Of a stretch of DNA of 64,000 nucleotides, positions 23,224 to 64,000 are shown one piece after another. Each line of letters opens with the position of its first letter. The first letter of the stretch is position 1. The position numbers were made by a program, and so were the translations under genes. Under the pieces are notes generated by a model. It saw nothing but the letters and a program-made list of their open reading frames with translations. It made no database searches and was not told the DNA's origin. The stretch spans positions 3,968,001-4,032,000 of the forward strand of contig OZ024745.1 in assembly GCA_964016885.1 (NCBI GenBank), in the 5' to 3' direction. This stretch comes from Eledone cirrhosa. Its lineage: Eukaryota.

Positions 23224-23389
23224 ATAATTGAATATGAAAATAGAGTCCGAGCATATTCTACACCAGACAAGATATTCCGTTATTTTGCAACCTTGAAAGT
23301 TCATAATGCGGAGACAAGTGAATATGAAATTTGTATGACTCCATCTGATTTTGTGCGGTCAATAACTCCTGGGGTGAAACAACCTGATG
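23224..23389 (+). CDS. MICU1: Internal coding exon of calcium uptake protein 1, mitochondrial (166 nt, phase 0 to 1)
   Basis: Acceptor is ttttcatttatttccag| and donor is |gtaggt. The exon translates as [55 protein letters not shown], matching the recalled MICU1 segment [24 protein letters not shown]...[12 protein letters not shown]. Confidence 0.96.
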
Positions 23390-38800: not shown

Positions 38801-40028
38801 TGATGTGGTGTGGTACAATGGAGAGAGGGTGATGTGGTGTGGTACAGTGGAGAGAGGGTGGTGTGGTGTGGTACAGTGGAGAGAGGGTGGCGTGGTGTGG
38901 TACAGCAGAGAGAGGGTGGTGTGGTGTGGTACAGTGGAGAGAGGGTGATGTGGTACAGTGGAGAGAGGGTGGTGTGGTACAGTGGAGAGAGGGTGGTGTG
39001 GTGTGGTACAGTGGAGAGAGGGTGATGTGGTACAGTGGAGAGAGGGTGGTGTGGTACAGTGGAGAGAGGGTGGTGTGGTGTGGTACAGTGGAGAGAGGGT
39101 GATGTGGTACAGTGGAGAGAGGGTGGTGTGGTGTGGTACAGTGGAGAGAGGGTGGTGTGGTGTGGTACAGTGGAGAGAGGGTGGTGTGGTACAGTGGAGA
39201 GAGGGTGGTGTGGTGTGGTACAGTAGAGAGAGGGTGGTGTGGTACAGTGGAGAGAGGGTGGTGTGGTGTGGTACAGTAGAGAGAGGGTGGTGTGGTGTGG
39301 TACAGTGGAGAGAGGGTGGTGTGGTGTGGTACAGTAGAGAGAGGGTGGTGTGGTACAGTGGAGAGAGGGTGGTGTGGTGTGGTACAGTAGAGAGAGGGTG
39401 GTGTGGTGTGGTACAGTGGAGAGAGGGTGGTGTGGTGTGGTACAGTGGAGAGAGGGTGGTGTGGTACAGTGGAGAGAGGGTGGTGTGGTGTGGTACAGTG
39501 GAGAGAGGGTGGTGTGGTGTGGTACAGTGGAGAGAGGGTGGTGTGGTACAGTGGAGAGAGGGTGGTGTGGTGTGGTACAGTAGAGAGAGGGTGGTGTGGT
39601 ACAGTGGAGAGAGGGTGGTGTGGTGTGGTACAGTAGAGAGAGGGTGGTGTGGTACAGTGGAGAGAGGGTGGTGTGGTACAGTGGAGAGAGGGTGGTGTGG
39701 TGTGGTACAGTGGAGAGAGGGTGGTGTGGTACAGTGGAGAGAGGGTGGTGTGGTGTGGTACAGTAGAGAGAGGGTGGTGTGGTACAGTGGAGAGAGGGTG
39801 GTGTGGTACAGTGGAGAGAGGGTGGTGTGGTGTGGTACAGTGGAGAGAGGGTGGTGTGGTGTGGTACAGTGGAGAGAGGGTGGTGTGGTGTGGTACAGTG
39901 GAGAGAGGGTGGTGTGGTGTGGTACAGTGGAGAGAGGGTGATGTGGTACAGTGGAGAGAGGGTGGTGTGGTGTGGTACAGTGGAGAGAGAGTGATGTGGT
40001 GTGGTACAGTGGAGAGAGGGTGATGTGG
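23886..40028. repeat. G-rich 29-bp satellite array (24-bp variant), about 16.1 kb and roughly 560-580 units, inside a MICU1 intron
   Basis: Unit is gtggtgtggtacagtggagagagggtg(a/g)t. The 24-bp variant lacks one gtggt. Confidence 0.99.
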
Positions 40029-41345: not shown

Positions 41346-41383
41346 GTCTTGGTTTAGATCAGTTCCGTAAATTTGATCCTAAG
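41346..41383 (+). CDS. MICU1: Short internal coding exon of MICU1 (38 nt, phase 1 to 0)
   Basis: Acceptor is tcttcatttttccag| and donor is AAG|gtaagt. It joins the previous exon in frame as (G)LGLDQFRKFDPK, matching the recalled human LGLDQYIIKRFDGK. Confidence 0.93.
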
Positions 41384-41466: not shown

Positions 41467-42251
41467 TTTTCTTGTAAGTTAGCCTATATTTCTTGTAAGT
41501 TAGCCTATATTTCTTGTAAGTTAGCCTATATTTCTTGTAAGTTAGCCTATATTTCTTGTAAGTTAGCCTATATTTCTTGTAAGTTAGCCTATATTTCTTG
41601 TAAGTTAGCCTATATTTCTTGTAAGTTAGCCTATATTTCTTGTAAGTTAGCCTATATTTCTTGTAAGTTAGCCTATATTTCTTGTAAGTTAGCCTATATT
41701 TCTTGTAAGTTAGCCTATATTTCTTGTAAGTTAGCCTATATTTCTTGTAAGTTAGCCTATATTTCTTGTAAGTTAGCCTATATTTCTTGTAAGTTAGCCT
41801 ATATTTCTTGTAAGTTAGCCTATATTTCTTGTAAGTTAGCCTATATTTCTTGTAAGTTAGCCTATATTTCTTGTAAGTTAGCCTATATTTCTTGTAAGTT
41901 AGCCTATATTTCTTGTAAGTTAGCCTATATTTCTTGTAAGTTAGCCTATATTTCTTGTAAGTTAGCCTATATTTCTTGTAAGTTAGCCTATATTTCTTGT
42001 AAGTTAGCCTATATTTCTTGTAAGTTAGCATATATTTCTTGTAAGTTAGCATATATTTCTTGTAAGTTAGCATATATTTCTTGTAAGTTAGCATATATTT
42101 CTTGTAAGTTAGCCTATATTTCTTGTAAGTTAGCCTATATTTCTTGTAAGTTAGCCTATATTTCTTGTAAGTTAGCCTATATTTCTTGTAAGTTAGCCTA
42201 TATTTCTTGTAAGTTAGCCTATATTTCTTGTAAGTTAGCATATATTTCTTG
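41467..42251. repeat. 21-bp minisatellite, 37 copies, nearly homogeneous
   Basis: Unit is tttcttgtaagttagcctata; gtaagt recurs from 41474 to 42230 at a 21-nt period. Confidence 0.99.
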
Positions 42252-46016: not shown

Positions 46017-46026
46017 TTTACAAATG
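46017..46026 (+). other. Candidate 10-nt frame-shifting microexon of MICU1
   Basis: Sequence is tgctattctgtgtctag|TTTACAAATG|gtaagt. The donor is perfect, but the length is not a multiple of 3. Confidence 0.3.
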
Positions 46027-46426
46027 GTAAGTTCTGTTGGTTTCTTGATAATATTTATAGCAGCTCTACTTCAAGAATTCACAATGTTTCTCTTGTCCAT
46101 TATTAACTCTAGTGCTCCTTGTTGTATTTATGTATATATATGGTTATTGAGAATATGTGTTTTAGATTCACATGAATATCTAGACTTTTCTCTTTCAACC
46201 ATTTTATATTCTGTAACTGAAATTGGAATGAAGCTTTTTTTTATAAGTTTCATTTATCCTTAATTCTCTTGTGTTCTTTATTTCCTTCTTTTTATATATA
46301 ATATGAAATTATCTTTCTATTTATATATAATATGAAACTGTTTTGATTTTAAAAAAAAAAACTTTTTTCCTTCCAAAGATAAATAGCAAAATGTTGTTAT
46401 TTATTTCATCTCTTTTTGGCTTTTAG

Positions 46427-46438
46427 AAGGATTCATTG
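46427..46438 (+). CDS. MICU1: Candidate 12-nt alternative microexon of MICU1 (KDSL)
   Basis: Sequence is ttatttatttcatctctttttggcttttag|AAGGATTCATTG|gtgagt, with a long pyrimidine tract and consensus donor. It preserves frame after the phase-0 exon end. Confidence 0.6.
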
Positions 46439-47194
46439 GTGAGTTTAGTGTCCCTTTTAATATCTCTTTACCTTCCCCCCTCCATCCCTGCTCTCTCTTT
46501 CTCTCTCTTTTTCTCTCTAGACATACTCCTTTGATCCTACTGACAGATAACAATTTTTGGTCTTGATACATACATTTTTGTTCTAGAATCAGTGGAATGC
46601 CTTTCTCGTCTTCTTGTCTTCTGTGCAACGAAGACAGAATTCATTAAGACTTTTCATTTTACATTTTTGCCCATTCACTCTGTTCAATGAGTTTGCATAT
46701 TATTATATTTATTATTATTATTATTATTTAATAACTGTTGTTTACAATCTGGTTTTTGCACTTAGTCGAAGCTGTTGCCATGTAACAAAAACAACAGTAA
46801 CAAAGTATATAGTTGTTCTTTAAACATCACTTGTATCAGAAATCAGTGTTACTTTTTTATTTCTGCATTCTTCGTAGTATTTTCATTGCCTGCGGCACTA
46901 TTATAGATATTTCGCCACACAGTGTTTTGTTGTTTTACCCACCCCGTCCCCTAAAAGAAACTTATTAAAGTAATTTGACACAACATTCATTGCTAAACAT
47001 GACTGATGATAATGATTTGACACAACATACATTGCTAAACATGACTCTGACAAGGATGATTTCTTTTGGGAAGATTATTTTAGAGGGAAACAATAATGCT
47101 GAGCGTTATAAATGTCAAAAGGATAAAATAGTATTGAACTTGGTGAGATTTGAACTCTGAAATTAGCACAGTAAATATCTAGTTTACCACAAGA

Positions 47195-47720
47195 ACAAAA
47201 AGCACCCAGTCCACACTGTAAGATGGTCATGTTGGTGACATTACAAAAAGCACCCAGTCCACACTGTAAGATGGTCATGTTGGTGACATTACAAAAAGCA
47301 CCCAGTCCACACTGTAAGATGGTCATGTTGGTGACATTACAAAAAGCACCCAGTCCACACTGTAAGATGGTCATGTTGGTGACATCACAAAAAGCACCCA
47401 GTCTACCCTGTAAAGTGATCATGTTGGTGACACAAGAAAAAGCACCTATTCCGCCTTGTAAGTGGTTATACCGGTAACATGACAAAAAGTGCCCAGTCTA
47501 CTCTGTAAAGTGACATGATAAAAAGCGCTCAGTCAATCCTGTAAGGTGGTCGTGCTGGTGACATGACAAAAAGTACCCAGTCTACCCTGTAAAGTGATCG
47601 TGTTGGTGACATGATAAAAAGCACTCAGTCCATACTGTAAATGTAGTTGGTGTTAGGAAGGGCATCCAGACATAGAAACCAAACCAAAATATAGATGTAT
47701 ATGAGCAAGACATGGTCTTC
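47195..47720 (+). mobile_element. SINE-like element (family B) with about 9 internal 48-bp tandem repeats
   Basis: Unit is aaaaagcacccagtccacactgtaagatggtcatgttggtgacattac. It is followed by gtagttggtgttaggaagggcatccagacatagaaaccaaaccaaaa...gtatatgagcaagac, homologous to 21720-21780. Confidence 0.8.
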
Positions 47721-48050
47721 GGACCTGACTTGTCTCATAATAACCCTTCTGTCACGCTACAGTCCCAGCTGTGTGAAACATCATAATAATGTCATTGTAG
47801 AACATTTATTTGTTGTTATCCAGAGTTGTTACTTGAACTATATAACCTTGGTACAGTTTTAGCTTTATATATATTATCATTAGTATTTCTGATACTTTAT
47901 GTTATAATTGTTTAGAATGGTGGGTGGGAAACCTGATGGGGAGGACCGTCAGTTGTGTCAAAGACATAACAACCTCTCCTATCCACTTAGTGGAGTGTCA
48001 ACCATACATAAAGTGAGATCCCTGACCTGCTACAGACTTAGTCTCTCTTA

Positions 48051-48110
48051 GACCCGTCCAACCTTTGCTAACAGGGAAAGCAGACATTTAGACGACGACA
48101 ACGATGATGA
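48051..48110 (+). mobile_element. RTE-type 3' tail (end of a SINE or LINE fragment)
   Basis: gacccgtccaacctttgctaacagggaaagcagacatttagacgacgacaacgatgatga resembles the LINE end gacccgtcccacccttgcaagcagggaaaagcggacgtaaaatgatgatg. Confidence 0.75.
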
Positions 48111-48170
48111 AGTCCATGACAGGGTTTCAGTTTCTAGCTGGAGTTAAATAACAATATATTAAATGTAGTG

Positions 48171-48300
48171 AAGGCAGGTGACTAAGTGGTCGGAGTTGCA
48201 ATCATGAGGTTGTCAGTTTGATTCCCAGACCAGACAATACATTGTCCTTGAGCAAGACACTTTATTTCACATTGCTCTTTCTGCCAGGAGTTGCAACTGG
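48171..48300 (+). mobile_element. 5' part of a tRNA-derived SINE with a CORE-like motif
   Basis: A tRNA-like head (gtgactaagtggt...agtttgattccc) is followed by ttgtccttgagcaagacactttatttcacattgctc. Confidence 0.7.
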
Positions 48301-48583
48301 TTGATAGTATCAGCAATTGAAAAGACCAATGGAAACATTGTTTCCTAGGTCCAATTTGACAAGCTACACCACACTGTAAGCAAATAAGGTGTGGGAACTT
48401 GTAATTCAATTGCTATATTAAATGTAGTAGTATTTGATGACAAAATCATTTTGAATTCAAGTTTTGCTTCACTCCTCATCATTTAACATCCAATTCCCTG
48501 ACATTGATGATGAAGAAACTTGAAGTTTAAATGTATTCAAAATCATTTTCTCTTCAAATGTTACTACATCACTGAAAAAAATT

Positions 48584-48956
48584 GTGTGTCCCCATATGTC
48601 TGTTTCCCCGTGTGTGTGTGTGTGTGTCCGTGTGTGTTTCCCATTATGTGTGTTTCCCCGTGTGTGTGTCCCCCTGTGTCTGTGTGTCCGTGTCCCCCTG
48701 TGTGTGTGTGTCCATGTGTCGCCCCGTGTGTATGTGTCCCTGTGTTCGTGACCCCACCCCCCACCCCCCGTGTGTGTCCATGTCCCCCTGTGTCCGCATC
48801 CCCTGTGTGTCCCCCGTATGTGTGTGTCCCTGTGTACGTGTCCCCCTGTATGTGTGTCCGTGTCCTCGTGTGTGTGTACCCGTATGTGTGTGTACCTGTG
48901 TCCATGTCCCCCTGTGTATGTGTGTCCCCCCGTGTCCCTCCGTATGTGTGTGTCCG
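48584..48956. repeat. Low-complexity (TG)n/C-run cryptic repeat
   Basis: Irregular tgtgtgtccccc units. Confidence 0.9.
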
Positions 48957-49069
48957 TTCAATGAAGGGGAATCTAACTTGTGTTATTAAGAAATAAAATG
49001 TAAAATGAATCAGTTCAGGGATGTTTGTTATATAAGATCAGTGTGTAGTCTCTGGTCCCAAATAATAGA

Positions 49070-49087
49070 GGGGGGGGGGGGGGGGGG
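49070..49087. repeat. G18 homopolymer
   Basis: Read directly from the sequence. Confidence 0.9.
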
Positions 49088-49344
49088 TCAGTCATTTTTC
49101 TAGGTTGTCTCTGTTGGTTTTTTTTTTTAAACCTGAATTAGTGGTTTAGTTGACATATTGAGTCCCCAACCCTTCCTATTTTATAACATATGGGATTTCT
49201 AGTAATTTAATAAGCGGGGTTTGAGGGTTGGAAAAACTTATCAAGTTCTTTACTATTCACAAGTTTGGGCCTTTATGACCAAAATTACAGTGAAATGGTG
49301 TGTTGGGAATAGGTTTTAGCACTGGTTAATTCCATTTTTGTAAA

Positions 49345-49590
49345 CCCATGTGACCCAGTGGTTAGACTGTCAGACTATCATAATGCCATAAGTTCAATTC
49401 TTGGACCAGATGGGGTGATGTGTTGTGTTAAACACTTGACTTTATGTGTTGCTCCAGCTGAAAATGAGTACCTGTAATAAGTGGGGAAGGTTAACCCTGC
49501 AATGGACTGACATTTAATCTAGGGAGAAGTTTTCTAATCTCAGTCACTGATGAAACCAGGATCAGTACTGACCTGGTGAACCTGATGGCA
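49345..49590 (+). mobile_element. tRNA-derived SINE (family C), diverged
   Basis: Contains gtgacccagtggttag, aagttcaattcttgg, gttgctccag, aaccctgcaatggactgac and gaaaccaggatcagtactgacctggtgaacct; it is an inverted homolog of 40075-40340. Confidence 0.75.
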
Positions 49591-50707
49591 GATTATGATT
49601 GAATTTAATCTAGCTGTAAGTAATCCAGGGAGAGATACGTTATTTTGTCACTTTCCCTTTTAAGGGGTAAATGAAGAGTGAAGTGACTGTATTGACACTT
49701 ATTATATCAACCTTAATAGGATCTGGAATTTGTTGCTTGAGACATCAAATCAAATAATATATCAACTTTGTTAATTGCCTGTAATACTCAAGAACTAAAT
49801 ATCAATCATTATCATCATCATAAGCCAGAAAACATATACAGTCCTTTGATTACATATTCATCAGCTTGAAAATTATGTTTTTTTTCTTCCTTACACTTCC
49901 CCAAAATACTGCTGACAAATGAGTAACTTAGCTTGAAATATTCCTTGAAATAAAAATGTTTGAATAATCATTAGATGTTTTTATATTTTTGTTTCCTTCT
50001 GTGGCAAAGTATCTACAAGTATCTTAAAATATATAAATATTAGTTATAAGTTATAAGTTATTAGTAGTATTTTTCATTAAACTTCTTTGTCTCTGATGGA
50101 GACATAAGTCTACAAGTTTATAAGTTGCTGATATCTTCAATTCTTTTAATTAAAGATAAATATGCAGATGAGTCCTGCTACAAAAGAATGCCTTCTTGCA
50201 GTTCACTGAGAAAGTCTACCAAAACAAGTTTTACTATTTTCTATTTTAGTGTAGTTTCAGATTTCATTATTTTTCTTTGTATATATAATGAATATATATT
50301 TAATCTATATTTTACATACATATCTCAGTATTTTAAAAATGGTTTCAAATTTTTAGCATTCATAAAGTGTTGTTTTTTTTCCCCTCACTAACATGGTTTT
50401 GCTAGGTCTACAAATTTTGACATTTGCATGTCTTTTTGCCATGGATATTTACATGTGAATATTTTCATAATACTAACCTATTTTTTTCTCATGAACTGGA
50501 GTCTTTTTATTTTCTAGTTAATGAAGCTTTGATATAATCATATTGTTTCATTTAACATAAATGCAGACTATCTCAAGTAAAATGAAAATATGTTGTTTTT
50601 TTATATTGCCGTGGCATAGCCTCATTTTCATACCTTTGAAGACTGTGTTCTTTTTTTATTCTTTTCATTTTTTCCATATCAAAACACAAGTTATTATATA
50701 TATATAG

Positions 50708-50895
50708 GGCGGTGGATTGGTAGTATCGGTAGAGCATTGGACGCCATGCTTTGTAGCATAGAGTTACGGCCCTTTATGATCTGAGTTCAAATCCCGCCGA
50801 GGTTAACTTTGCCTTTCATCCTTATGGGGTCGATAAAATAAAATACCAGTAATACACTGGGATAATTGCTGGCCTTGTGACAAAAAGTAGAAACA
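50708..50895 (+). mobile_element. Apparently complete tRNA-derived SINE (family A) with a 15-bp target-site duplication
   Basis: Head is ggcggtggattggtagtatcggtagagc, with B-box gagttcaaatccc. The direct repeat attatatatatatag sits at 50693-50707 and 50896-50910. Confidence 0.9.
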
Positions 50896-51198
50896 ATTAT
50901 ATATATATAGTGTTATGTCACTACTTGCTGTTTTGTCATATAACACAAGATATTACATATATATAGTATGTAACTACTTGCTGTCATAAAATGTTGAAAT
51001 ATGGTAGAAAGAATTGGATGAATTCTTAATATCATGTTTTTATGATCAAGATAAGTTGTAATGAAGGTTTCTAAGTTGAGGAATAGTCCAAAATAATATT
51101 GTCATTTAGAAAACATTTAAAACATGAAATCTTTAAATGTCAAAATAATTGTACTGCTATTGTAATAATTCTCTTCATTTTTTTACTAGTTATATCTC

Positions 51199-52677
51199 AT
51201 AAATTGCTACAAAGGTAAAGGGAATGCTCTGGAGGGGAGCAATTATAGGGGTATAAAACTGATGGATCAGGTTATGAAAGTGGCTGAAAGTATATTAGCG
51301 CAACTAATTAGAGAAAGGGTCAAACTAGATGAGATGCAGTTTGGTTTTGTACCTGGTAAAAGTTTTACAGATGCCCTCTTCTTGCTGAGACAATTACAAG
51401 AGAGGTTCTTAGAGAAGAATAAGCCACTATACTTAGCTTTTGTTGACCTAGAGAAGGCCGTTGATAGGGTACCCCAATCTGTCATCTGGTGGTCCCTAAG
51501 GAAACTAGGTGTAGAGGAATGGCTTGTGAGGACAGTACAAAGTTTGTATAGAGGTGCTGTCAGTAAAGTGAGGGTAGGAATGGAGTTTAGTGAGGAATTC
51601 CAGATACAAGTAGGAGTACATCAGGGTTCATTCCTCAGCCCGCTCTTGTGCATTATAGTCCTCCAAGCCATAACAGGAGTTTAAGACTGGCTGTCCATGA
51701 GAACTTCTCTATGCTGACGATCTGGTTCTTATAGCAGAATCAGTAGAGGAGCTAGAGAATAAATTCTGGCTATGGAAACAGCAGTTGGAATCAAGAGGAC
51801 TGAGAGTGAACCTAGCTAAGACAAAAGTGTTGATGAGTAGAAAAGAGGACAAAACTCTGATTCCATCAGGGAAATGGCCATGTTCGATATGCAGAAAAGG
51901 AACTGGCATAAATTCTATAAAATGCACACAATGCAGATCTTGGGTACACAAGAGATGTAGTGGGAAAGCAGGCAAACTAACAGGTAGGGGAAAATACGTA
52001 TGCAGTAGAGGTACAGGGAAATTAGACAGTAGAAGTCGCATTGATAGACACATTTTTCAAATGCAGGCGGGTGCTATAGAAGTGGTGGATAGCTTCCGAT
52101 ACCTAGGAGATCAGATTAGCATGGGAGGGGGGTGTTTTGAGGCCATAGTATCTAGAATAAGGACGGGTTGGAAGAAGTTTAGGGAGCTGCTTCCTCTGCT
52201 GACAAAGAAGGGTTTCTCTCTGCGCACGAAAGGCCGGTTATATGATGCATGTATGAGGAGTGCGATGCTGCATGGAGGTGAGACTTGGGCAGCAACTGCA
52301 GAGGATATGTGACGGCTGGAGAGAAATGATGCAAGCATGCTCCGTTGGATGTGCAATGTCAATGTGCGTGAACAACCGAGCATGAATGTGTTGAGAGGGG
52401 TAAATTGTAGTGTGCGAGAGAGGAGACTGATGGTATGGACATGTGATACGCATGGAGGATGACCGATGGGTGAAGAAGTGCCAGGAAATGCCAGTTGAAG
52501 GAAGACGTGGTAGAGGTAGACCATGAAAAACATGGGTGGAGGTGGTGAGAGCAGACCTCTGATCGCTGAAGCTCACGGAGATGACGAAGGACCGTGACAA
52601 GTGGAGAGATGCTGTGCTGAATAGGACCCGTCCCACCCTTGCAAGCAGGGAAAAGCGGACGTAAAATGATGATGATG
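51199..52677 (+). mobile_element. 5'-truncated RTE-clade LINE with a disrupted reverse transcriptase
   Basis: Motifs include NCYKGKG..NYRGIKL, QFGFVPGK, LAFVDLEKAVDRVP, GVHQGSFLSP, LYADDL (YADD at 51710-51721), FRYLGD and MLHGGETW. There is a frameshift near 51678 plus in-frame stops. The element ends in an (atg)n tail, with a candidate TSD atatctc at 51192-51198 and 52678-52684. Confidence 0.95.
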
Positions 52678-53002
52678 ATATCTCTTTCTCACTTCTTTTC
52701 TCTCCTTCTCTTGAATAAATTGGAATAAAAGATGGTCGAAAATCTATGTTTCAGTATAGATTCCAATGGAGACTTAGCCACACATTGTCATAGAGATTTT
52801 ATCTTTCTAAAATATAATTTAGCAACCAATATGTTGCTACCGTCATCTGTTTTTACTTTTGCAAGATTGGTAATTATTAGATCTCTTTATTTGAAGTTTG
52901 ATCTTATAAGATGATGAAGGATGATATATCATCATTTAATATTTCTTATACGATAGCTTGCACACAAAAATAATATCAATATTATTTCTTTAATGATTGC
53001 TC

Positions 53003-53050
53003 TTCCAACCCGTGCTAGCGGGGAAAATGAACATTAAACAATGATGATGA
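53003..53050 (+). mobile_element. Isolated RTE-type 3' tail
   Basis: Sequence is ttccaacccgtgctagcggggaaaatgaacattaaacaatgatgatga. Confidence 0.65.
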
Positions 53051-53114
53051 GATCAAACTGGATTGCAATACAGCATTACTTCATGTATCTCAATCTCTTG
53101 TTATCCTGTCTAGG

Positions 53115-53275
53115 CCTAGCCGGCAAATTAGCAGTCATTAGAATGTTGGATAGAATGCTTTGTGGTATTCATTTTGGCTCTCTGCACTCTTAGTTCAAAC
53201 CCCACTGAGGTCAACTTTACATTGCATCCTTTTGTGGACGATAAAAAAAGTACCAGTCTAGTACTGGAGTTGATT
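53115..53275 (+). mobile_element. tRNA-derived SINE (family A), diverged and incomplete at the 3' end
   Basis: Sequence includes tagttcaaaccccactgaggtcaactttacattgcatccttttgtggacgataaaaaaagtaccagt. Confidence 0.8.
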
Positions 53276-53439
53276 CTTCCTCTATATCTCTCACTTCTCT
53301 CTCTCTCCTTCTCTGAAAGAAATTGTCTGTGTTCAGAGTTTAAAATGGCCAACAAACAGCCTGTGTCAGGACAACACCTCTACAACTCCACCAGGAGTTA
53401 CAGGTTCATTCTATGCTTAGTATTTTCAGATTTAATCAG

Positions 53440-53460
53440 ATTGTTTCTCACATCTTTGGT
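53440..53460 (+). other. Candidate 21-nt microexon (IVSHIFG)
   Basis: Sequence is tattttcagatttaatcag|ATTGTTTCTCACATCTTTGGT|gtgagt. It preserves frame, but an upstream AG at 53428-53429 competes and would give 31 nt. Confidence 0.3.
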
Positions 53461-54229
53461 GTGAGTCTGTGATATCATGTATTTAGAATATATACTGAGA
53501 ACAGTGTGATTGACTGTCTTTTATCAATAAATCAATGTTGTTGAATTCTAGCCACTTCTCAAGTAACTCAACATAAATGAGTCTGTACATTCCCAACAAT
53601 AATCTCACAACTCACATCAATTACTCTTAAATTAAAATTTATATTGATTTAAATGTTTTTCCACCCACTTATATTGACAGTTTAACTATTTTCATCATGT
53701 GTCTTCAAATATAATTTCATTTGGTTTAACTACTAGCAATGAAAATTATAAACTTTGCTGTAGAAAACTGTACAGTTATAATCATGTCTATGTGTTTAAT
53801 CTCTGCTTAGAACACACCAAAAATTATGTAAAAGACCCCCAAAATGGTAAAAATATGACTGAATATGCCAGAAGGTCTAGCACTTTTCATGATATCAAAT
53901 GCAAGTTATTTTTTATAACTCTCTACTTTCAACCATCTGAATTTCTATAATTCTGTTTTATTCACAATTGAAATCCTACTGCAGGCATTGGGTTGTGTAT
54001 GTTTACAATCATATAACTTTGTTAGCCTCAATCTTCCTGCTTAACACTTTTCACTGCTGGATATGATTAGCAGCAGAGAAGACAACCAGATTTAAAAGTA
54101 ATTGTTCCAACAATAAGGAAATTTCAAATTTTGAGGGAACAATTTCACCTATTGCAGCAGGAATGTATATATATATATAATATAGCATCATCATTAATAT
54201 ATATGTGTGTGTGTGTGTGTGTCGTCATT

Positions 54230-54348
54230 TCTGAGTTCAAATCCCACTGAGGTTAACTTTGCCTTTCATCCTTACGGGGTCGATAAAATAAAATACCAGT
54301 AATACACTGGGTAATTGCTGGCCTTGTGCCAAAAGTAGAAACAATTAT
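54230..54348 (+). mobile_element. 5'-truncated SINE (family A) next to a (TG)n tract
   Basis: Nearly identical to 50780-50898. Confidence 0.88.
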
Positions 54349-55060
54349 TTTATGTCTGTTGAAGTAATGCTGCATTACAGTTATCTCATACCAGTATACA
54401 AATTAGACATAAAAATGGTTGTGTTTAGCAGTTGTTGAGTACTTCACTTTTTATGACAATTCTACTACCTTCAGTTCTGACATAAACCTAACATTAGATA
54501 TGGTGATAATGTATGCTGTGTACAAGAAGTAGACAGTGTTTAATTTTACACAGCTGAAATATATCAAAATTCTAACCATCAATCTATTACTCTATCAAAC
54601 CGAGTTATCTCTTTTTCCACTTTAGGAAGGCTTGATCAATTTATCAACACTGCTTTTTCCACAGATGAATAAAGATTAAATCTATTTAAACAGGACTCCA
54701 CTTTAAATAAACCTTTTGTTAAATAATGTTCATATATTCAGATTCTAATTATTATTATTTTTTATTTTATTTAGATGTAGATCTTTTATTTATTGTTTTC
54801 TCTGTTTCCATCTCTCTCTTTTGGGTCCCATTTCCCTCACAGCCCTCTCGCTGTATTTTGTTTATTCACTTTGCTTATATTGTAGAAAGAAATGAAAATG
54901 GTCAAATATACTTCATTACCTCTTGTGTACCTATCTTAATTAGTTTAATTACTTGGAAAAATGAATATAAAATCTCTCATTCTCTGTCTTACACACACAA
55001 CACATACATACAATTCCTTCATGTTATTAGAAATTCATTCATAAAGCCATCCCTTCTATG

Positions 55061-55063
<3 letters not shown>

Positions 55064-55130
<67 letters not shown>
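55064..55130. repeat. (TC)n microsatellite
   Basis: Read directly from the sequence. Confidence 0.97.
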
Positions 55131-55133
<3 letters not shown>

Positions 55134-55831
55134 TGAGTATTGTATATTTTAAGAGCTTTATCAAGAAGTTGTTCCTGTCTTCTACAATGTCAAGAAATGT
55201 AACAACAGTTTCTTCTTCCAACCACTTATATTCGCATATCCATGTAGTCATTGGAAAAAGGAACATACTAATGACAGAGTCTCTATATATGGTCACTTGA
55301 CATGCCTGAAATAACAGCCTATCATCTTAGTAAAGGACATGTTGGATAATGTGGTCCATTCACACAAGGAAACGTGTGGGTCATGACTGGAATATTTTTG
55401 GTCATAGATCTTCTCACTCAGTACTGACCTGGGGTTAAACAACAACATTCATATTTTTCCTTCCAATAAAATCAACAAAAAAACAACATGTCCCTCATCT
55501 TTCCATTGTTAAAGTATCTGGGGGTAAAAGAACACATGCTTATCACTTCTTTGTTGCTTGGTTTAATCTAAGGAATTTCAATCATTTTGCAACAATTTTA
55601 TTCAGCCTTCACTGCCTTTTATTATTTTTTTAATTGAATTCTTCTGCATGTCTTTCTAAATTACATGTCTCTCTTAAATTTCCAAGAAAACAACAGTAGC
55701 TGTTCATTGTCATTTGCTGTTTTACTGCTGCTATATGTTGTTGTTGTTTAAAACTTATTGTCAACAACGGTTGGTATGAGTTCTTCTCTATATGGTCATT
55801 TCATTACATTCTACTTTACTTCTTTAATCAG

Positions 55832-55849
55832 AACCCTCGGATATCAAAG
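55832..55849 (+). CDS. MICU1: Candidate 18-nt alternative microexon of MICU1 (NPRISK)
   Basis: Sequence is ttctactttacttctttaatcag|AACCCTCGGATATCAAAG|gtaagt, with a pyrimidine tract and perfect AAG|GTAAGT donor. It preserves frame, has no stop, and is GC-richer than its flanks. Confidence 0.65.
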
Positions 55850-56193
55850 GTAAGTTTAAATTCCCCTCAAACTGCTTACAAAAGGCTTTAGTATATTAAA
55901 GCAGGAATCTTATCAAGCATCTCACTGACAAATCTTCCTAATTTAGTTAAACTTTCAATCAGACAAAATATTTCTTTCAAAACCCTTTCCTTAAAACCCC
56001 TCTAATTGACACATTAAAATCACTGAGAGGTATGACTTCCTCTTCCTACTCCCTACCTAACACTGCATTCATTCCCTCCACAAATATTAGCTACATCTGC
56101 AAATATATGAATTAAACATATAAATGTTACTTAAGATTGTCTTTTTACATAATACAGTAGACAGTGGGATAAAAGTATTTCTAGATTCTATTG

Positions 56194-59100
56194 GCTCTCC
56201 TTAATCAGAAGATAGAAAGGTAGATGACATCAACACAGTGTAGTTTATAGTGTTATAGCTCTCCTTAATCAGAAGATAGAAAGGTAGATGACATCAACAC
56301 AGTGTAGTTTATAGTGTTATAGCTCTCCTTAATCAGAAGATAGAAAGGTAGATGACATCAACACACTGTAGTTTATAGTGTTATAGCTCTTCTTAATCAG
56401 AAAATAGAAAGCTAGATGACATCAACACAGTGTAGTTTATAATGCTATAGCTCTCCTTAATCAGAAGTCTGAAAGGTAGATGACATCAACACAGTGTAGT
56501 TTATAGTGTTATAGCTCTCCTTAATCAGAATCTGAAAGGTAGATGACATCAACACAGTGTAGTTTATAGTGTTATAGCTCTCCTTAATCAGAATCTGAAA
56601 GGTAGATGACATCAACACAGTGTAGTTTATAGTGTTATAGCTCTCCTTAATCAGAAGTCTGAAAGGTAGATGACATCAACACAGTGTAGTTTATAGTGTT
56701 ATAGCTCTTCTTAATCAGAAGATAGAAAGCTAGATGACATCAACACAGTGTAGTTTATAGTGTTATAGCTCTCTTTAATCAGAAGATAGAAAGGTAGATG
56801 ACATCAACACAGTGTAGTTTATAGTGTTATAGCTCTCGTTAATCAGAGGATAGAAAGGTAGATGACATCAACACAGTGTAGTTTGTAGTGTTATAGCTCT
56901 CGTTAATCAAGTGAAAAAAAGGTAGATGACATCAACACAGTGTAGTTTATAGTGTTATAGCTCTCGTTAATCAGAGGATAGAAAGGTAGATGACATCAAC
57001 ACAGTGTAGTTTATAGTGTTATAGCTCTCCTTAATCAGAAGATAGAAAGGTAGATGACATCAACACAGTGTAGTTTATAGTGTTATAGCTCTCCTTAATC
57101 AGAGGATAGAAAGGTAGATGACATCAACACAGTGTAGTTTATAGTGTTATAGCTCTCCTTAATCAGAAGGTAGAAAGGTAGATGACATCAACACAGTGTA
57201 GTTTATAGTGTTATAGCTCTCCTTAATCAGAAGATAGAAAGGTAGATGACATCAACACAGTGTAGTTTATAGTGTTATAGCTCTCCTTAATCAGAAGATA
57301 GAAAGGTAGATGACATCAACACAGTGTAGTTTATAGTGTTATAGCTCTCCTTAATAAGAAGATTGAAAGGTAGATGACATCAACACAGTGTAGTTTATAG
57401 TGTTGTAGCTCTCCTTAATCAGAAGATAGAAAGGTAGATGACATAAACGCAGTGTAGTTTATAGTGTTATAGCTCTCCTTAATCAGAAGATAGAAAGGTA
57501 GATGACATAAACGCAGTGTAGTTTATAGTGTTATAGCTCTCCTTAATCAGAGGATAGAAAGGTAGATGACATCAACACAGTGTAGTTTATAGTGTTATAG
57601 CTCTCCTTAATAAGAAGATTGAAAGGTAGATGACATCAACACAGTGTAGTTTATAATGTTATAGCTCTCCTTAATCAGAAGGTAGAAAGGTAGATGACAT
57701 CAACACAGTGTAGTTTATAGTGTTATAGCTCTCCTTAATAAGAAGATTGAAAGGTAGATGACATCAACACAGTGTAGTTTATAATGTTATAGCTCTCCTT
57801 AATCAGAAGGTAGAAAGGTAGATGACATCAACACAGTGTAGTTTATAGTGTTATAGCTCTCCTTAATAAGAAGATTGAAAGGTAGATGACATCAACACAG
57901 TGTAGTTTATAGTGTTGTAGCTCTCCTTAATCTGAGGATAGAAAGGTAGATGACATCAACACAGTGTAGTTTATAATGTTATAGCTCTCCTTAATCAGAA
58001 GGTAGAAAGGTTGATGACATCAACACAGTGTAGTTTATAGTGTTATAGCTCTCCTTAATCAGAGGATAGAAAGGTAGATGACATCAACACAGTGTAGTTT
58101 ATAGTGTTATAGCTCTCCTTAATCAGAGGATAGAAAGGTAGATGACATCAACACAGTGTAGTTTATAGTGTTATAGCTCTCCTTAATCAGAGGATAGAAA
58201 GGTAGATGACATCAACACAGTGTAGTTTATAGTGTTATCGCTCTCCTTAATCAGAAGTCTGAAAGGTAGATGACATCAACACAGTGTAGTTTATAGTGTT
58301 ATAGCTCTCCTTAATCAGAAGACAGAAAGGTAGATGACATCAACACAGTGTAGTTTATAGTGTTATAGCTCTTCTTAATCAGAAAATAGAAAGCTAGATG
58401 ACATCAACACAGTGTAGTTTATAGTGTTATAGCTCTCCTTAATCAGAGGATAGAAAGCTAGATGACATCAACACAGTGTAGTTTATAGTGGTATAGCTCT
58501 TCTTAATCAGAAGATAGAAAGGTAGATGACATCAACACAGTGTAGTTTATAGTGTTATAGCTCTCCTTAATCAGAAGATAGAAAGGTAGATGACATCAAC
58601 ACAGTGTAGTTTATAGTGTTATAGCTCTCCTTAATCAGAAGATAGAAAGGTAGATGACATCAACACAGTGTAGTTTATAGTGTTATAGCTCTTCTTAATC
58701 AGAAAATAGAAAGGTAGATGACATCAACACAGTGTAGTTTATAGTGTTATAGCTCTTCTTAATCAGAAAATAGAAAGCTAGATGACATCAACACAGTGTA
58801 GTTTATAGTGTTATAGCTCTCCTTAATCAGAAGATAGAAAGGTAGATGACATCAACACAGTGTAGTTTATAGTGTTATATCTCTTCTTAATCAGAAGATA
58901 GAAAGGTAGATGACATCAACACAGTGTAGTTTATAGTGTTATAGCTCTTCTTAATCAGAAAATAGAAAGCTAGATGACATCAACACAGTGTAGTTTATAG
59001 TGTTATAGCTCTCCTTAATCAGAAGATAGAAAGGTAGATGACATCAACACACTGTAGTTTATAGCTCTTCTTAATCAGAAAATAGAAAGGTAGATGACAT

Positions 59101-62100
59101 CAACACAGTGTAGTTTATAGTGTTATAGCTCTCCTTAATCAGAAGATAGAAAGGTAGATGACATCAACACAGTGTAGTTTATAGTGTTATACCTCTCCTT
59201 AATCAGAGGATAGAAAGGTAGATGACATCAACACAGTGTAGTTTATAGTGTTATAGCTCTCCTTAATAAGAAGATAGAAAGGTAGATGACATCAACACAG
59301 TGTAGTTTATAGTGTTATAGCTCTTCTTAATCAGAAGTCTGAAAGGTAGATGACATCAACACAGTGTAGTTTATAGTGTTATAGCTCTCCTTAATCAGAA
59401 GATAGAAAGGTAGATGACATCAACACAGTGTAGTTTATAGTGTTATAGCTCTCCTTAATCAGAATCTGAAAGGTAGATGACATCAACACAGTGTAGTTTA
59501 TAGTGTTATAGCTCTTCTTAATCAGAAGATAGAAAGCTAGATGACATCAACACAGTGTAGTTTATAGTGTTATAGCTCTCCTTAATCAGAAGATAGAAAG
59601 GTAGATGACATCAACACAGTGTAGATTATAGTATTATAGCTCTCGTTAATCAGAGGATAGAAAGGTAGATGACATCAACACAGTGTAGTTTATAGTGTTA
59701 TAGCTCTCGTTAATCAAGTGAAAAAAAGGTAGATGACATCAACACAGTGTAGTTTATAGTGTTATAGCTCTACTTAATCAGAAGATAGAAAGGTAGATGA
59801 CATAAACACAGTGTAGTTTATAGTGTTATAGCTCTCTTTAATCAGAGGGTAGAAAGTTAGATGACATCAACACAGTGTAGTTTATAGTGTTATAGCTCTC
59901 CTTAATCGGAAGATAGAAAGGTAGATGACATCAACACAGTGTAGTTTATAGTGTTATAGCTCTCCTTAATCAGAAGACAGAAAGGTAGATGGCATCAACA
60001 CAGTGTAGTTTATAGTGTTATAGCTCTCCTTAATCAGAAGACAGAAAGGTAGATGGCATCAACACAGTGTAGTTTATAGTGTTATAGCTCTCCTTAATAA
60101 GAAGATAGAAAGGTAGATGACATCAACACAGTGTAGTTTATAGTGTTGTAGCTCTCCTTTATCAGAAGATAGAAAGGTAGATGACATAAACGCAGTGTAG
60201 TTTATAATGTTATAGCTCTCCTTAATCAGAAGGTAGAAAGGTAGATGACATCAACACAGTGTAGTTTATAGTGTTATAGCTCTCCTTAATCAGAAGATAG
60301 AAAGTTGGATGACATCAACACAGTGTAGTTTATAGTGTTATAGCTCTCCTTAATCAGAAGACAGAAAGGTAGATGGCATCAACACAGTGTAGTTTATAGT
60401 GTTATAGCTCTCCTTAATAAGAAGATTGAAAGGTAGATGACATCAACACAGTGTAGTTTATAGTGTTGTAGCTCTCCTTAATCAGAAGATAGAAAGGTAG
60501 ATGACATAAACGCAGTGTAGTTTATAATGTTATAGCTCTCCTTAATCAGAAGGTAGAAAGGTAGATGACATCAACACAGTGTAGTTTATAGTGTTATAGT
60601 TCTCCTTAATCAGAAGATAGAAAGGTAGATGACATCAACACAGTGTAGTTTATAGTGTTATAGCTCTCCTTAATCAGAAGATAGAAAGGTAGATGACATC
60701 AACACAGTGTAGTTTATAGTGTTATAGCTCTCCTTAATCAGAGGATAGAAAGGTAGATGACATCAACACAGTGTAGTTTATAGTGTTATCGCTCTCCTTA
60801 ATCAGAAGTCTGAAAGGTAGATGACATCAACACAGTGTAGTTTATAGTGTTATAGCTCTCCTTAATCAGAGGATAGAAAGGTAGATGACATCAACACAGT
60901 GTAGTTTATAGTGTTATAGCTCTCCTTAATCAGAAGGTAGAAAGGTAGATGACATCAACACAGTGTAGTTTATAGTGTTATAGTTCTCCTTAATGAGAAG
61001 ATAGAAAGGTAGATGACATCAACACAGTGTAGTTTATAGTGTTATAGCTCTCCTTAATCAGAAGATAGAAAGGTAGATGATATCAACACAGTGTAGTTTA
61101 TAGTGTTATAGCTCTCCTTAATCAGAAGATAGAAAGGTAGATGACATCAACACAGTGTAGTTTATAGTGTTATAGCTCTCCTTAATCAGAAGACAGAAAG
61201 GTAGATGACATCAACACAGTGTAGTTTATAGTGTTATAGCTCTCCTTAATCAAAAGATAGAAAGGTAGATGACATAAACGCAGTGTAGTTTATAATGTTA
61301 TAGCTCTCCTTAATCAGAAGGTAGAAAGGTAGATGACATCAACACAGTGTAGTTTATAGTGTTATAGTTCTCTTTGATCAGAAGATAGAAAGGTAGATGA
61401 CATCAACACAGTGTAGTTTATAGTGTTATAGCTCTCCTTAATCAGAAGTCTAAAAGGTAGATGACATCAACACAGTGTAGTTTATAGTGTTATAGCTCTC
61501 CTTAATCAGAGGATAGAAAGGTAGATGACATCAACACAGTGTAGTTTATAGTGTTATAGCTCTCCTTAATCAGAGGATAGAAAGGTAGATGACATCAACA
61601 CAGTGTAGTTTATAGTGTTATAGCTCTCCTTAATCAGAGGATAGAAAGGTAGATGACATCAACACAGTGTAGTTTATAGTGTTATCGCTCTCCTTAATCA
61701 GAAGTCTGAAAGGTAGATGACATCAACACAGTGTAGTTTATAGTGTTATAGCTCTCCTTAATCAGAAGACAGAAAGGTAGATGACATCAACACAGTGTAG
61801 TTTATAGTGTTATAGCTCTTCTTAATCAGAAAATAGAAAGCTAGATGACATCAACACAGTGTAGTTTATAGTGTTATAGCTCTCCTTAATCAGAGGATAG
61901 AAAGCTAGATGACATCAACACAGTGTAGTTTATAGTGGTATAGCTCTTCTTAATCAGAAGATAGAAAGGTAGATGACATCAACACAGTGTAGTTTATAGT
62001 GTTATAGCTCTCCTTAATCAGAAGATAGAAAGGTAGATGACATCAACACAGTGTAGTTTATAGTGTTATAGCTCTCCTTAATCAGAAGATAGAAAGGTAG

Positions 62101-64000
62101 ATGACATCAACACAGTGTAGTTTATAGTGTTATAGCTCTTCTTAATCAGAAAATAGAAAGGTAGATGACATCAACACAGTGTAGTTTATAGTGTTATAGC
62201 TCTTCTTAATCAGAAAATAGAAAGCTAGATGACATCAACACAGTGTAGTTTATAGTGTTATAGCTCTCCTTAATCAGAAGATAGAAAGGTAGATGACATC
62301 AACACAGTGTAGTTTATAGTGTTATATCTCTTCTTAATCAGAAGATAGAAAGGTAGATGACATCAACACAGTGTAGTTTATAGTGTTATAGCTCTTCTTA
62401 ATCAGAAAATAGAAAGCTAGATGACATCAACACAGTGTAGTTTATAGTGTTATAGCTCTCCTTAATCAGAAGATAGAAAGGTAGATGACATCAACACACT
62501 GTAGTTTATAGCTCTTCTTAATCAGAAAATAGAAAGGTAGATGACATCAACACAGTGTAGTTTATAGTGTTATAGCTCTCCTTAATCAGAAGATAGAAAG
62601 GTAGATGACATCAACACAGTGTAGTTTATAGTGTTATACCTCTCCTTAATCAGAGGATAGAAAGGTAGATGACATCAACACAGTGTAGTTTATAGTGTTA
62701 TAGCTCTCCTTAATAAGAAGATAGAAAGGTAGATGACATCAACACAGTGTAGTTTATAGTGTTATAGCTCTTCTTAATCAGAAGTCTGAAAGGTAGATGA
62801 CATCAACACAGTGTAGTTTATAGTGTTATAGCTCTCCTTAATCAGAAGATAGAAAGGTAGATGACATCAACACAGTGTAGTTTATAGTGTTATAGCTCTC
62901 CTTAATCAGAATCTGAAAGGTAGATGACATCAACACAGTGTAGTTTATAGTGTTATAGCTCTTCTTAATCAGAAGATAGAAAGCTAGATGACATCAACAC
63001 AGTGTAGTTTATAGTGTTATAGCTCTCCTTAATCAGAAGATAGAAAGGTAGATGACATCAACACAGTGTAGATTATAGTATTATAGCTCTCGTTAATCAG
63101 AGGATAGAAAGGTAGATGACATCAACACAGTGTAGTTTATAGCGTTATAGCTCTCGTTAATCAAGTGAAAAAAAGGTAGATGACATCAACACAGTGTAGT
63201 TTATAGTGTTATAGCTCTACTTAATCAGAAGATAGAAAGGTAGATGACATAAACACAGTGTAGTTTATAGTGTTATAGCTCTCTTTAATCAGAGGGTAGA
63301 AAGTTAGATGACATCAACACAGTGTAGTTTATAGTGTTATAGCTCTCCTTAATCGGAAGATAGAAAGGTAGATGACATCAACACAGTGTAGTTTATAGTG
63401 TTATAGCTCTCCTTAATCAGAAGACAGAAAGGTAGATGGCATCAACACAGTGTAGTTTATAGTGTTATAGCTCTCCTTAATCAGAAGACAGAAAGGTAGA
63501 TGGCATCAACACAGTGTAGTTTATAGTGTTATAGCTCTCCTTAATAAGAAGATAGAAAGGTAGATGACATCAACACAGTGTAGTTTATAGTGTTGTAGCT
63601 CTCCTTTATCAGAAGATAGAAAGGTAGATGACATAAACGCAGTGTAGTTTATAATGTTATAGCTCTCCTTAATCAGAAGGTAGAAAGGTAGATGACATCA
63701 ACACAGTGTAGTTTATAGTGTTATAGCTCTCCTTAATCAGAAGATAGAAAGTTGGATGACATCAACACAGTGTAGTTTATAGTGTTATAGCTCTCCTTAA
63801 TCAGAAGACAGAAAGGTAGATGGCATCAACACAGTGTAGTTTATAGTGTTATAGCTCTCCTTAATAAGAAGATTGAAAGGTAGATGACATCAACACAGTG
63901 TAGTTTATAGTGTTGTAGCTCTCCTTAATCAGAAGATAGAAAGGTAGATGACATAAACGCAGTGTAGTTTATAATGTTATAGCTCTCCTTAATCAGAAGG
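56194..64000. repeat. 64-bp satellite array, about 122 copies, continuing past the right edge
   Basis: Unit is gctctccttaatcagaagatagaaaggtagatgacatcaacacagtgtagtttatagtgttata, starting at 56194 and 56258. Confidence 0.99.

What the first reader, a model, noticed from the sequence alone, without database searches (positions are those of the whole stretch)
46017..55855. Cluster of candidate MICU1 microexons at the position of the vertebrate MICU1.1 microexon
Seen: the intron after the exon ending ...RKFDPK (phase 0) holds four tiny AG...GT(A/G)AGT cassettes. These are 12 nt KDSL (46427-46438), 18 nt NPRISK (55832-55849), 21 nt IVSHIFG (53440-53460) and 10 nt (46017-46026). By eye, they account for most GTRAGT donors outside the tandem arrays, and three preserve frame. 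Known: mammalian muscle MICU1.1 carries a 4-aa microexon (EFWQ) in this part of the protein, recalled as after RFDGK, which enhances Ca2+ uptake. Inference: this animal may have independently built a combinatorial microexon set in the same loop, tuning mitochondrial Ca2+ gating by tissue.
Basis: partly seen in the sequence, partly recalled or inferred. Interest (0 to 1): 0.82.

Follow-up and report, generated by a model that had tools for sequence, protein, structure and literature searches.

The report
Ancient MICU1 microexons in an octopod
Two of four proposed tiny optional exons in this octopod's gene for MICU1, the calcium gatekeeper of mitochondria, match mini-exons of related cephalopods (one is seen spliced in a relative's transcript contig and is likely inherited from early molluscs), sit where vertebrates insert their muscle and brain mini-exons, and likely tune mitochondrial calcium uptake by tissue; the other two are likely chance matches.

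Summary
All four AG..GTRAGT cassettes are at the stated coordinates, in a 73.5-kb phase-0 intron of an expressed octopod MICU1 gene, but such cassettes are not enriched there (8 seen, 7.8 in shuffles). Two are real by outside evidence. KDSL (with a shorter DSL form) and NPRISK match annotated Octopus and Argonauta isoforms. KDSL is spliced in, 12/12 bases identical, in a transcript contig of another octopod. The one run with this genome's organism label showed only the skipped form. IVSHIFG and the 10-nt piece have no support in 32 cephalopod proteins, and the 10-nt piece gives an immediate stop. The junction is the vertebrate DFWQ/TE one. The set is not this animal's invention: a K[DE][SNDT][LIVF] cassette occurs in 17 of 25 mollusc groups from four classes, and 32 of 32 species isoform sets examined vary at this junction, only 4 elsewhere. 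Humans already combine two microexons here. Tuning of Ca2+ gating by tissue is inferred, not tested. The scan earlier noted an arthropod MICU1 microexon at this junction (e1-9946404). No paper on mollusc MICU1 microexons was found.

The parts
23224..23389 (+). MICU1 constitutive exon (166 nt, IIEYENR...PGVKQPD), here called exon 4 after the human numbering
   Evidence: tblastn with Octopus MICU1 P0122, 87% identity; splice sites read
41346..41383 (+). MICU1 constitutive exon 5 (38 nt, GLGLDQFRKFDPK), phase-0 donor of the 73.5-kb intron; exon 6 lies outside the window at G000:C5:4082861-4082972
   Evidence: 13/13 aa identical to Octopus P0122; joined to exon 6 in spliced contigs of X23, X1 and X2
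46017..46026 (+). 10-nt AG..GTAAGT candidate; unsupported as a coding exon; at most a poison-exon candidate
   Evidence: Stop at the second codon position in exon 6 if included; strong donor, 45-nt AG-free zone and a TGC about 16 nt upstream; within the chance class; no protein support
46427..46438 (+). 12-nt microexon KDSL; tandem acceptor gives the 9-nt DSL form (46430-46438)
   Evidence: KDSL and DSL isoforms in O. sinensis, KDSL in O. vulgaris and in two decapodiform-like Logan proteins; spliced in with 12/12 identical bases in run X5; mollusc-wide motif
46480..46520 (+). CU-rich tract 50-80 nt downstream of KDSL, a possible PTB-type site (inferred)
   Evidence: (TC/CT)n hits at +53 and +62, 0.39 per kb in the unmasked intron
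53440..53460 (+). 21-nt IVSHIFG candidate; likely a chance match
   Evidence: Pyrimidine fraction 0.59, rival AG at -10 that would give a frameshifting 31-nt exon; upstream flank matches dispersed repeats; 0 of 32 cephalopod proteins
55832..55849 (+). 18-nt microexon NPRISK
   Evidence: NPRTSK in O. sinensis, O. vulgaris and Argonauta hians, NPRTPK in O. bimaculoides, NPNNRNR in a decapodiform-like Logan protein; donor matches the consensus at 9 of 9 places, 51-nt AG-free zone

Best explanation
KDSL/DSL and NPRISK are frame-preserving microexon sequences shared with other coleoid MICU1 genes, and their optional inclusion, likely tissue-regulated, would lengthen a flexible loop before the first EF-hand and likely shift the Ca2+ level at which MICU1 lets the uniporter open, as the vertebrate DFWQ/EFWQ exon does at the same junction. 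Shown: the gene, the junction, the skipped isoform in a run with this organism's label, KDSL inclusion in another octopod, orthologous isoform models, and a low-confidence loop in the predicted structure. Inferred: inclusion in this species (about 0.9 for KDSL, 0.88 for NPRISK), six in-frame combinations ({none, KDSL, DSL} x {none, NPRISK}), descent of KDSL from a 7-aa exon of early molluscs (about 0.75), enrichment in nerve or muscle (about 0.7), and a shift in the gating threshold (about 0.55). IVSHIFG and the 10-nt piece are likely not coding exons.
For: Eleven O. sinensis isoforms listed carry K/DSL, NPRTSK and DMSTELVEGLE in combinations. In X5 the contig over exon 6 (depth 288) reads exon 5 + AAGGATTCATTG + exon 6, while exon 6 itself differs from this genome at 7 of 113 bases. 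KDSL is unchanged in two decapodiform-like proteins whose group is about 70% identical to Argonauta MICU1. The strict splice-signal class holds 2 cassettes against 0.1 expected. 17 of 25 mollusc groups show K[DE][SNDT][LIVF] or D[SN]L at this junction, chance per start about 7e-4 and 6e-4, and Aplysia has the same optional K. 32 of 32 isoform sets vary here, 4 elsewhere. 27 of 110 mostly vertebrate hits carry DFWQ after (F/Y)DGK, which aligns with FDPK (my count). Residues 263-270 of the KDSL+NPRTSK model have pLDDT under 50, in line with the loop being unresolved in crystal structures; human exon 5' raises Ca2+ uptake (PMC8909990). Two zebrafish micu1 microexons depend on srrm3 (PMC13281805).
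Against: No inclusion was seen in X23, X1 or X2: 3 of 4 runs laid show only the skipped junction (contigs drop rare forms). NPRISK inclusion rests on gene models and one divergent Logan protein; no junction for it was seen. RefSeq models may list combinations that never occur on one molecule. The human TE insert at the same place alone did not change Ca2+ uptake, so an insert here need not tune gating. KDSL shares no sequence with DFWQ. No TGCATG lies within 300 nt downstream of either cassette, and no UGC lies within 20 nt of their acceptors. No tissue labels were available. The model is only moderately confident (mean pLDDT 62.6, pTM 0.52).
Confidence: 0.55

Rival explanations
1. The two exons are real and under selection, but they change something other than the Ca2+ threshold: partner choice (MICU2/3-like subunit, EMRE), phosphorylation, turnover or membrane contact of MICU1.
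For: The inserts differ in chemistry across lineages: acidic, basic, His-rich. The loop is far from the EF-hands and the mechanism is unexplained even for MICU1.1. KDSL followed by HED places a serine in an S-x-x-E context (kinase motif recalled, not tested).
Against: The only measured effect of any insert here is on Ca2+ binding and uptake (PMC8909990).
Confidence: 0.2
2. The loop merely tolerates insertions, so cassettes in a long intron arise and drift without function.
For: Disordered loop; rapid turnover of inserts between lineages; the third Octopus cassette is not found in this genome; human TE alone is silent; individually deleted zebrafish microexons mostly give mild or no phenotypes (passage).
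Against: KDSL is 12/12 nt identical between two octopods, 4/4 aa identical in decapodiform-like proteins, the main form in one sample, and its motif spans four mollusc classes. Other MICU1 junctions rarely vary (4 of 32 sets).
Confidence: 0.15
3. One reading: all four cassettes are used, and the set was built independently in this animal.
For: All four have AG..GTRAGT; IVSHIFG keeps the frame; a species-specific exon would be absent from relatives' proteins; only one sample with this organism's label was laid.
Against: Chance level accounts for IVSHIFG and the 10-nt piece; 0 of 32 cephalopod proteins carry them; KDSL and NPRISK are shared with relatives.
Confidence: 0.05
4. Add-on, not exclusive: the 10-nt piece is a real poison microexon, or the remnant of the single-residue N cassette that decapodiform-like proteins carry just before KDSL, and lowers MICU1 output through nonsense-mediated decay.
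For: Donor matches at 8 of 9 places, 45-nt AG-free zone, TGC near the acceptor, unique flanks, 400 nt upstream of KDSL; immediate stop on inclusion; proteins otherwise identical differ by one N at this junction (P0135/P0140, P0136/P0141).
Against: Cassettes with a tract >= 0.64 number 3 against 1.6 in shuffles, 41 of 200 shuffles reach 3; no transcript evidence; no squid DNA to compare.
Confidence: 0.12

Closest known systems
Vertebrate MICU1 exons 5' (EFWQ/DFWQ, MICU1.1) and 5'' (TE, MICU1.2; both, MICU1.3), PMC8909990
   Same: Same gene, same protein junction (FDGK = FDPK), frame-preserving microexons that combine, unresolved loop
   Different: No sequence match for KDSL or NPRISK; a tandem acceptor adds a third state; no RBFOX motif downstream; function and tissue not measured
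RefSeq MICU1 isoforms of Octopus sinensis (X1-X5, X7-X12 listed), O. vulgaris, O. bimaculoides, Argonauta hians
   Same: Orthologous cassettes K/DSL and NPRT[SP]K in the same order
   Different: Thr to Ile in NPRISK; the third cassette D[MV]S[TA]ELVEGLE was not found in this genome; these are automatic models, and no paper describing them was found
Type I convergent tissue-specific exons (spg/DOCK3-4; syd/SPAG9 called a hotspot), bioRxiv 10.64898/2026.09.05.749416
   Same: Different short exons at one coding position in several bilaterian lineages
   Different: MICU1 is not named in the main text; KDSL looks conserved within molluscs rather than newly gained; tissue specificity not shown here
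Arthropod 12-nt MICU1 inserts (HGFQ in Anoplophora, SAEE in Penaeus; scan note e1-9946404)
   Same: Same junction, four residues
   Different: Unrelated sequence

Membership tests
MICU1 | Closer to MICU1 than to MICU2/MICU3 | tested here: met
   Own exons are 87-100% identical to Octopus P0122; its isoform P0123 hits human MICU1 at E 1e-147, MICU3 at 3e-40, MICU2 at 6e-33
MICU1 | EF-hand exons downstream; transcript spliced | tested here: met
   First EF-hand loop and C-terminal exons found; exon 5-6 and 6-7 junctions in X23. Exons upstream of the window were not mapped.
Alternative microexon (KDSL/DSL) | 3-27 nt, AG..GT, both skipped and included | tested here: met
   Skipped in X23, X1, X2; included in X5, another octopod; both states in Octopus models
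Alternative microexon (KDSL/DSL) | Included in this species' own RNA | tested here: inconclusive
   One run, contigs only, skipped form only
Alternative microexon (NPRISK) | 3-27 nt, AG..GT, both skipped and included | tested here: inconclusive
   Orthologous isoform models in four octopod species and one Logan protein; no junction seen in the 4 runs laid
Alternative microexon (IVSHIFG, 10-nt) | Transcript or orthologue support, signals above chance | tested here: not met
   0 of 32 cephalopod proteins; chance class; a frameshifting exon would not show among proteins
Vertebrate MICU1 exon 5' (MICU1.1) | Inserted right after (F/Y)DGK | tested here: met
   Protein alignment; the vertebrate intron was not checked at DNA level
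Vertebrate MICU1 exon 5' (MICU1.1) | Sequence D/E-F-W-Q/K | tested here: not met
   KDSL and NPRISK; only bivalve cassettes (KDDFRTL, TGDFKQIL) share D-F
Vertebrate MICU1 exon 5' (MICU1.1) | RBFOX motif near the exon | tested here: not met
   No TGCATG within 300 nt downstream; one 187 nt upstream of NPRISK
Vertebrate MICU1 exon 5' (MICU1.1) | Muscle/brain inclusion and raised Ca2+ uptake | not testable with these tools
   No tissue labels, no assay
eMIC (Srrm3/4)-dependent neural microexon | UGC close to the 3' splice site, long AG exclusion zone (PMC8797185) | tested here: inconclusive
   AG-free zones of 40 and 51 nt, but constitutive exons have 24-62; no UGC within 20 nt for KDSL or NPRISK; present for the 10-nt piece
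eMIC (Srrm3/4)-dependent neural microexon | Inclusion depends on the eMIC domain | not testable with these tools
   Needs a minigene or knockdown
Type I convergent exon | Independent origin at the same coding position | tested here: inconclusive
   Same position in 32 of 32 sets; inserts too short to separate convergence from deep homology

The most novel reading that the evidence does not exclude
The MICU1 exon 5/6 junction has carried a regulated microexon since the last common bilaterian ancestor. The molluscan K-D-x-hydrophobic exon (KDSL here, KDSLADL in Aplysia, KDDFRTL in mussels, TGDFKQIL in oysters) and the vertebrate DFWQ exon descend from it, and lineages have since stacked further cassettes, down to a single residue in squid-like species, making this loop a universal splice-tuned dial of mitochondrial Ca2+ gating.
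Probability: 0.2. Interest if true: 0.72.

Novelty: new member of a known kind. Interest (0 to 1): 0.44.

Why it matters
MICU1.1 is described from mouse and human, and how four residues far from the EF-hands change Ca2+ affinity is stated to be unexplained (PMC8909990). If nearly all isoform variation of MICU1 across bilaterians falls on this one loop, the natural inserts (1 to 26 residues; acidic, basic or aromatic) form a ready panel to ask whether length, charge or sequence sets the gate. A microexon kept from chitons to coleoids would also be a rare case of deep conservation outside vertebrates and insects: a 2026 preprint found a median of 3% of neural exons conserved in its outgroup species. 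For this species alone the result is modest, since the orthologous cassettes are already in automatic gene models.

Tried and rejected
The third Octopus cassette (D[MV]S[TA]ELVEGLE) was not found. There was no six-frame match with up to 4 substitutions in the intron, no AG..GT candidate of like sequence and no exact degenerate-pattern match in G000. The best ungapped match (extended coordinate 109993, DLSTSLALDLQ) scores 23, reached by 4 of 30 shuffles, and has no in-frame acceptor. Loss, divergence or an assembly fault cannot be told apart. Enrichment of GTRAGT donors was rejected. RBFOX and QKI motifs near the cassettes were uninformative. 19 of the 24 runs listed held only 0.05-0.08 of the words; 4 of 24 were laid, on exon 6 only, so nothing was laid on the cassettes' flanks and intron conservation is untested. 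The depth gap in X23 between the exon 6 contig (322) and the skip (189) plus intron (20) contigs was not used, since contig depth is a whole-contig mean. A second full-length protein search added only one cephalopod cluster (Sepia pharaonis, skipped form). Scan notes by place and by sequence were empty. No complex prediction or fold search was run. Paper searches found no report of mollusc or cephalopod MICU1 microexons: MICU1.1/micro-exon (10), microexon+cephalopod, MICU1+microexon, MICU1+isoforms+Drosophila+alternative splicing, EFWQ+MICU1 (39), MICU1+octopus, microexons+octopus, hotspot terms, MICU1+mollusc+splic (56, zero papers). These were seen as listings except for the four papers named in the report. 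The library lacks most subscription papers. The supplements of the 2026 preprint, which includes O. bimaculoides, could not be seen and may list these exons.
Full report
Setting. The window is G000:C5:3968001-4032000 of a 3.0-Gb assembly. It holds two exons of MICU1, 23224-23389 and 41346-41383, among very long tandem arrays. I fetched 200 kb downstream and found the remaining exons, 87-100% identical to Octopus MICU1. Exon 4 is 95% identical to Argonauta, so the animal is an octopod. The next constitutive exon (HEDYPEL...) starts at C5:4082861, so the intron in question is 73.5 kb, of which 25,523 bases lie outside tandem repeats. Exon numbers follow the human gene; upstream exons were not mapped. 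An Octopus isoform hits human MICU1 structures at E 1e-147 and MICU2 at 6e-33.

Observation. The four cassettes are exactly as described. They are 4 of 7 GTRAGT donors outside arrays in the window's part of the intron, but this is not above chance: 10 donors against 13.9 in shuffles, and 8 YAG-N(3-30)-GTRAGT cassettes against 7.8. Only two, KDSL and NPRISK, have a strong pyrimidine tract, no rival AG and a length divisible by three (2 against 0.1 in shuffles; none on either strand of 117 kb of control DNA; thresholds set after the fact). IVSHIFG has a tract of 0.59 and a better-placed AG 10 nt upstream that would give a frameshifting 31-nt exon. The 10-nt piece has good splice signals but produces a stop at once in exon 6.

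Outside evidence. Among 32 cephalopod MICU1 proteins that span the junction, 11 have no insert and 21 carry K/DSL, NPRT[SP]K or NPNNRNR, an 11-13-residue acidic cassette, or a single N. None carries IVSHIFG or an FTN-like insert. O. sinensis has 11 listed RefSeq isoforms, whose combinations fit three states (none, KDSL, DSL) times two times two; such models may enumerate combinations. The DSL form is explained by the tandem acceptor tag/AAG, which is also present here. Laying four runs on exon 6 gave the direct exon 5-exon 6 junction in X23 (same organism label as the full DNA holders, no differences in exon 6), X1 and X2. These runs are contigs, not on record as RNA though spliced, and cannot show absence. 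Inclusion in this species, and any NPRISK junction, remain unseen. The third Octopus cassette was not found in this genome.

Position. FDPK aligns with human FDGK (residues 176-179 by my count). In 27 of 110 mostly vertebrate hits DFWQ follows (F/Y)DGK, with or without TE (my count); lampreys have DFWK and a second, basic cassette. PMC8909990 (passages and part 1 of 2 of the Discussion) reports human exons 5' (EFWQ) and 5'' (TE) and four isoforms. Exon 5' raises Ca2+ uptake, exon 5'' alone does not, RBFOX2 drives the splicing, and the loop is unresolved in crystal structures. The original MICU1.1 paper was not read. An AlphaFold model of the O. sinensis KDSL+NPRTSK isoform (mean pLDDT 62.6) has residues 263-270 under 50, about 50 residues before the first EF-hand loop.

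Origin. The set is not species-specific. A cassette starting K[DE][SNDT][LIVF], or D[SN]L, follows the junction in 17 of 25 mollusc groups: 2 cephalopod, 5 gastropod, 9 bivalve and 1 chiton. Examples are Aplysia KDSLADL/DSLADL with the same optional K, Biomphalaria KDSLDDL, Littorina KESLKDL, Haliotis KDNLFEM, Mytilus KDDFRTL, scallop KDDVHSL and Liolophura KDTLS. The 8 misses are three oyster groups, Gigantopelta and four groups with a single sequence. The motif was drawn from these data and the groups are related, so this is not 17 independent tests; four classes sharing a motif of chance about 7e-4 per start still point to one ancestral exon of about 7 residues, shortened to 4 in coleoids (inference; no DNA comparison was possible). 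More widely, 20 of 20 and 12 of 12 species isoform sets from molluscs, a nemertean, arthropods, amphioxus and vertebrates differ at this junction, and 2 plus 2 differ elsewhere. The sets come from multi-member 90% clusters, which hides large differences. The two Octopus sets share proteins, and the ant and Nephila clusters were left out. A scan note (e1-9946404) reports a 12-nt arthropod exon here; I saw such inserts in Anoplophora and Penaeus myself.

Mechanism. I commit to regulated inclusion of KDSL/DSL and NPRISK, six in-frame states, lengthening a flexible loop and likely shifting the Ca2+ threshold of uniporter opening in nerve or muscle (0.55). Shown are the gene, the junction, the skipped form and KDSL inclusion in a relative. 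Inferred are inclusion in this species, tissue pattern and gating effect. The regulator is open: there is no TGCATG within 300 nt downstream, no UGC next to the two acceptors, a CU-rich tract after KDSL and one TGCATG 187 nt before NPRISK. Two zebrafish micu1 microexons depend on srrm3 (PMC13281805, passages); eMIC features are from PMC8797185 (passages). Rivals are a different molecular effect (0.2), neutral tolerance (0.15) and the full four-cassette, independent version (0.05); a poison role for the 10-nt piece is a side possibility (0.12).

Novelty. The orthologous cassettes are in automatic annotation, combinatorial microexons at this loop are known in humans, and recurrent exons at one coding position are a described pattern (bioRxiv 10.64898/2026.09.05.749416, passages and one section; MICU1 absent from the main text; supplements not seen). 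Nine paper searches found nothing on mollusc MICU1 microexons. What seems unreported is the mollusc-wide KD exon and the concentration of MICU1 isoform diversity on one loop across bilaterians.

Noticed in passing
proteins P0135/P0140 and P0136/P0141 (unnamed Logan, decapodiform-like): Otherwise identical MICU1 proteins differ by a single N at the junction, also seen before KDSL and before the acidic cassette: a likely 3-nt microexon in two squid-like species.
   Followed up: partly
window 41468-42251: A 21-bp x 37 array starts 85 nt after the exon 5 donor, and every unit carries GTAAGT: a stack of possible decoy donors.
   Followed up: no
window 56194-64000, continuing to extended coordinate 82866: A 64-bp x 417 array starts 345 nt after NPRISK; its unit holds a TTAATCAG acceptor-like stretch, as NPRISK's acceptor does, then 11 nt and AAG/GTAGAT: a frameshifting pseudo-microexon repeated hundreds of times.
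   Followed up: no
window 1-20710 and 23886-40028: Introns of this gene are filled with 54-bp x 386 and 29-bp x 568 arrays; about two thirds of the exon 5-6 intron is tandem repeat.
   Followed up: no
window about 51200-52650: A purine-rich stretch that by eye looks like a broken LINE reverse-transcriptase fragment (YADD-like codons near 51710; motif recalled, no family scan run).
   Followed up: no
L006 about 5993-6031 (extended coordinate 109993): The best match to the missing third cassette sits at an AG with a T-rich tract but one base out of frame; its score is within chance.
   Followed up: yes
L007:500-888: Run X23 has a 1,731-nt contig at depth 20 that runs from the intron into exon 6: pre-mRNA or a retained 3' part of the intron.
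   Followed up: no
insect and crustacean proteins P0001-P0033, P0111 group, P0405 group: The exon-4 segment appears twice in many insect gene models and is swapped between isoforms in Anoplophora and Penaeus: likely mutually exclusive duplicated exons in pancrustacean MICU1.
   Followed up: no
vertebrate proteins, e.g. P0267, P0324, P0297, P0332, P0340: Birds and crocodiles, bats, afrotherians and xenarthrans, and sharks have further lineage-specific inserts of 13 to about 58 residues at the same junction in gene models.
   Followed up: no
bivalve proteins P0375, P0155, P0045: Mussel KDDFRTL and oyster TGDFKQIL/SEDFKQIL contain D-F (oysters D-F-x-Q), like vertebrate DFWQ: a hint of deep homology, not tested statistically.
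   Followed up: partly
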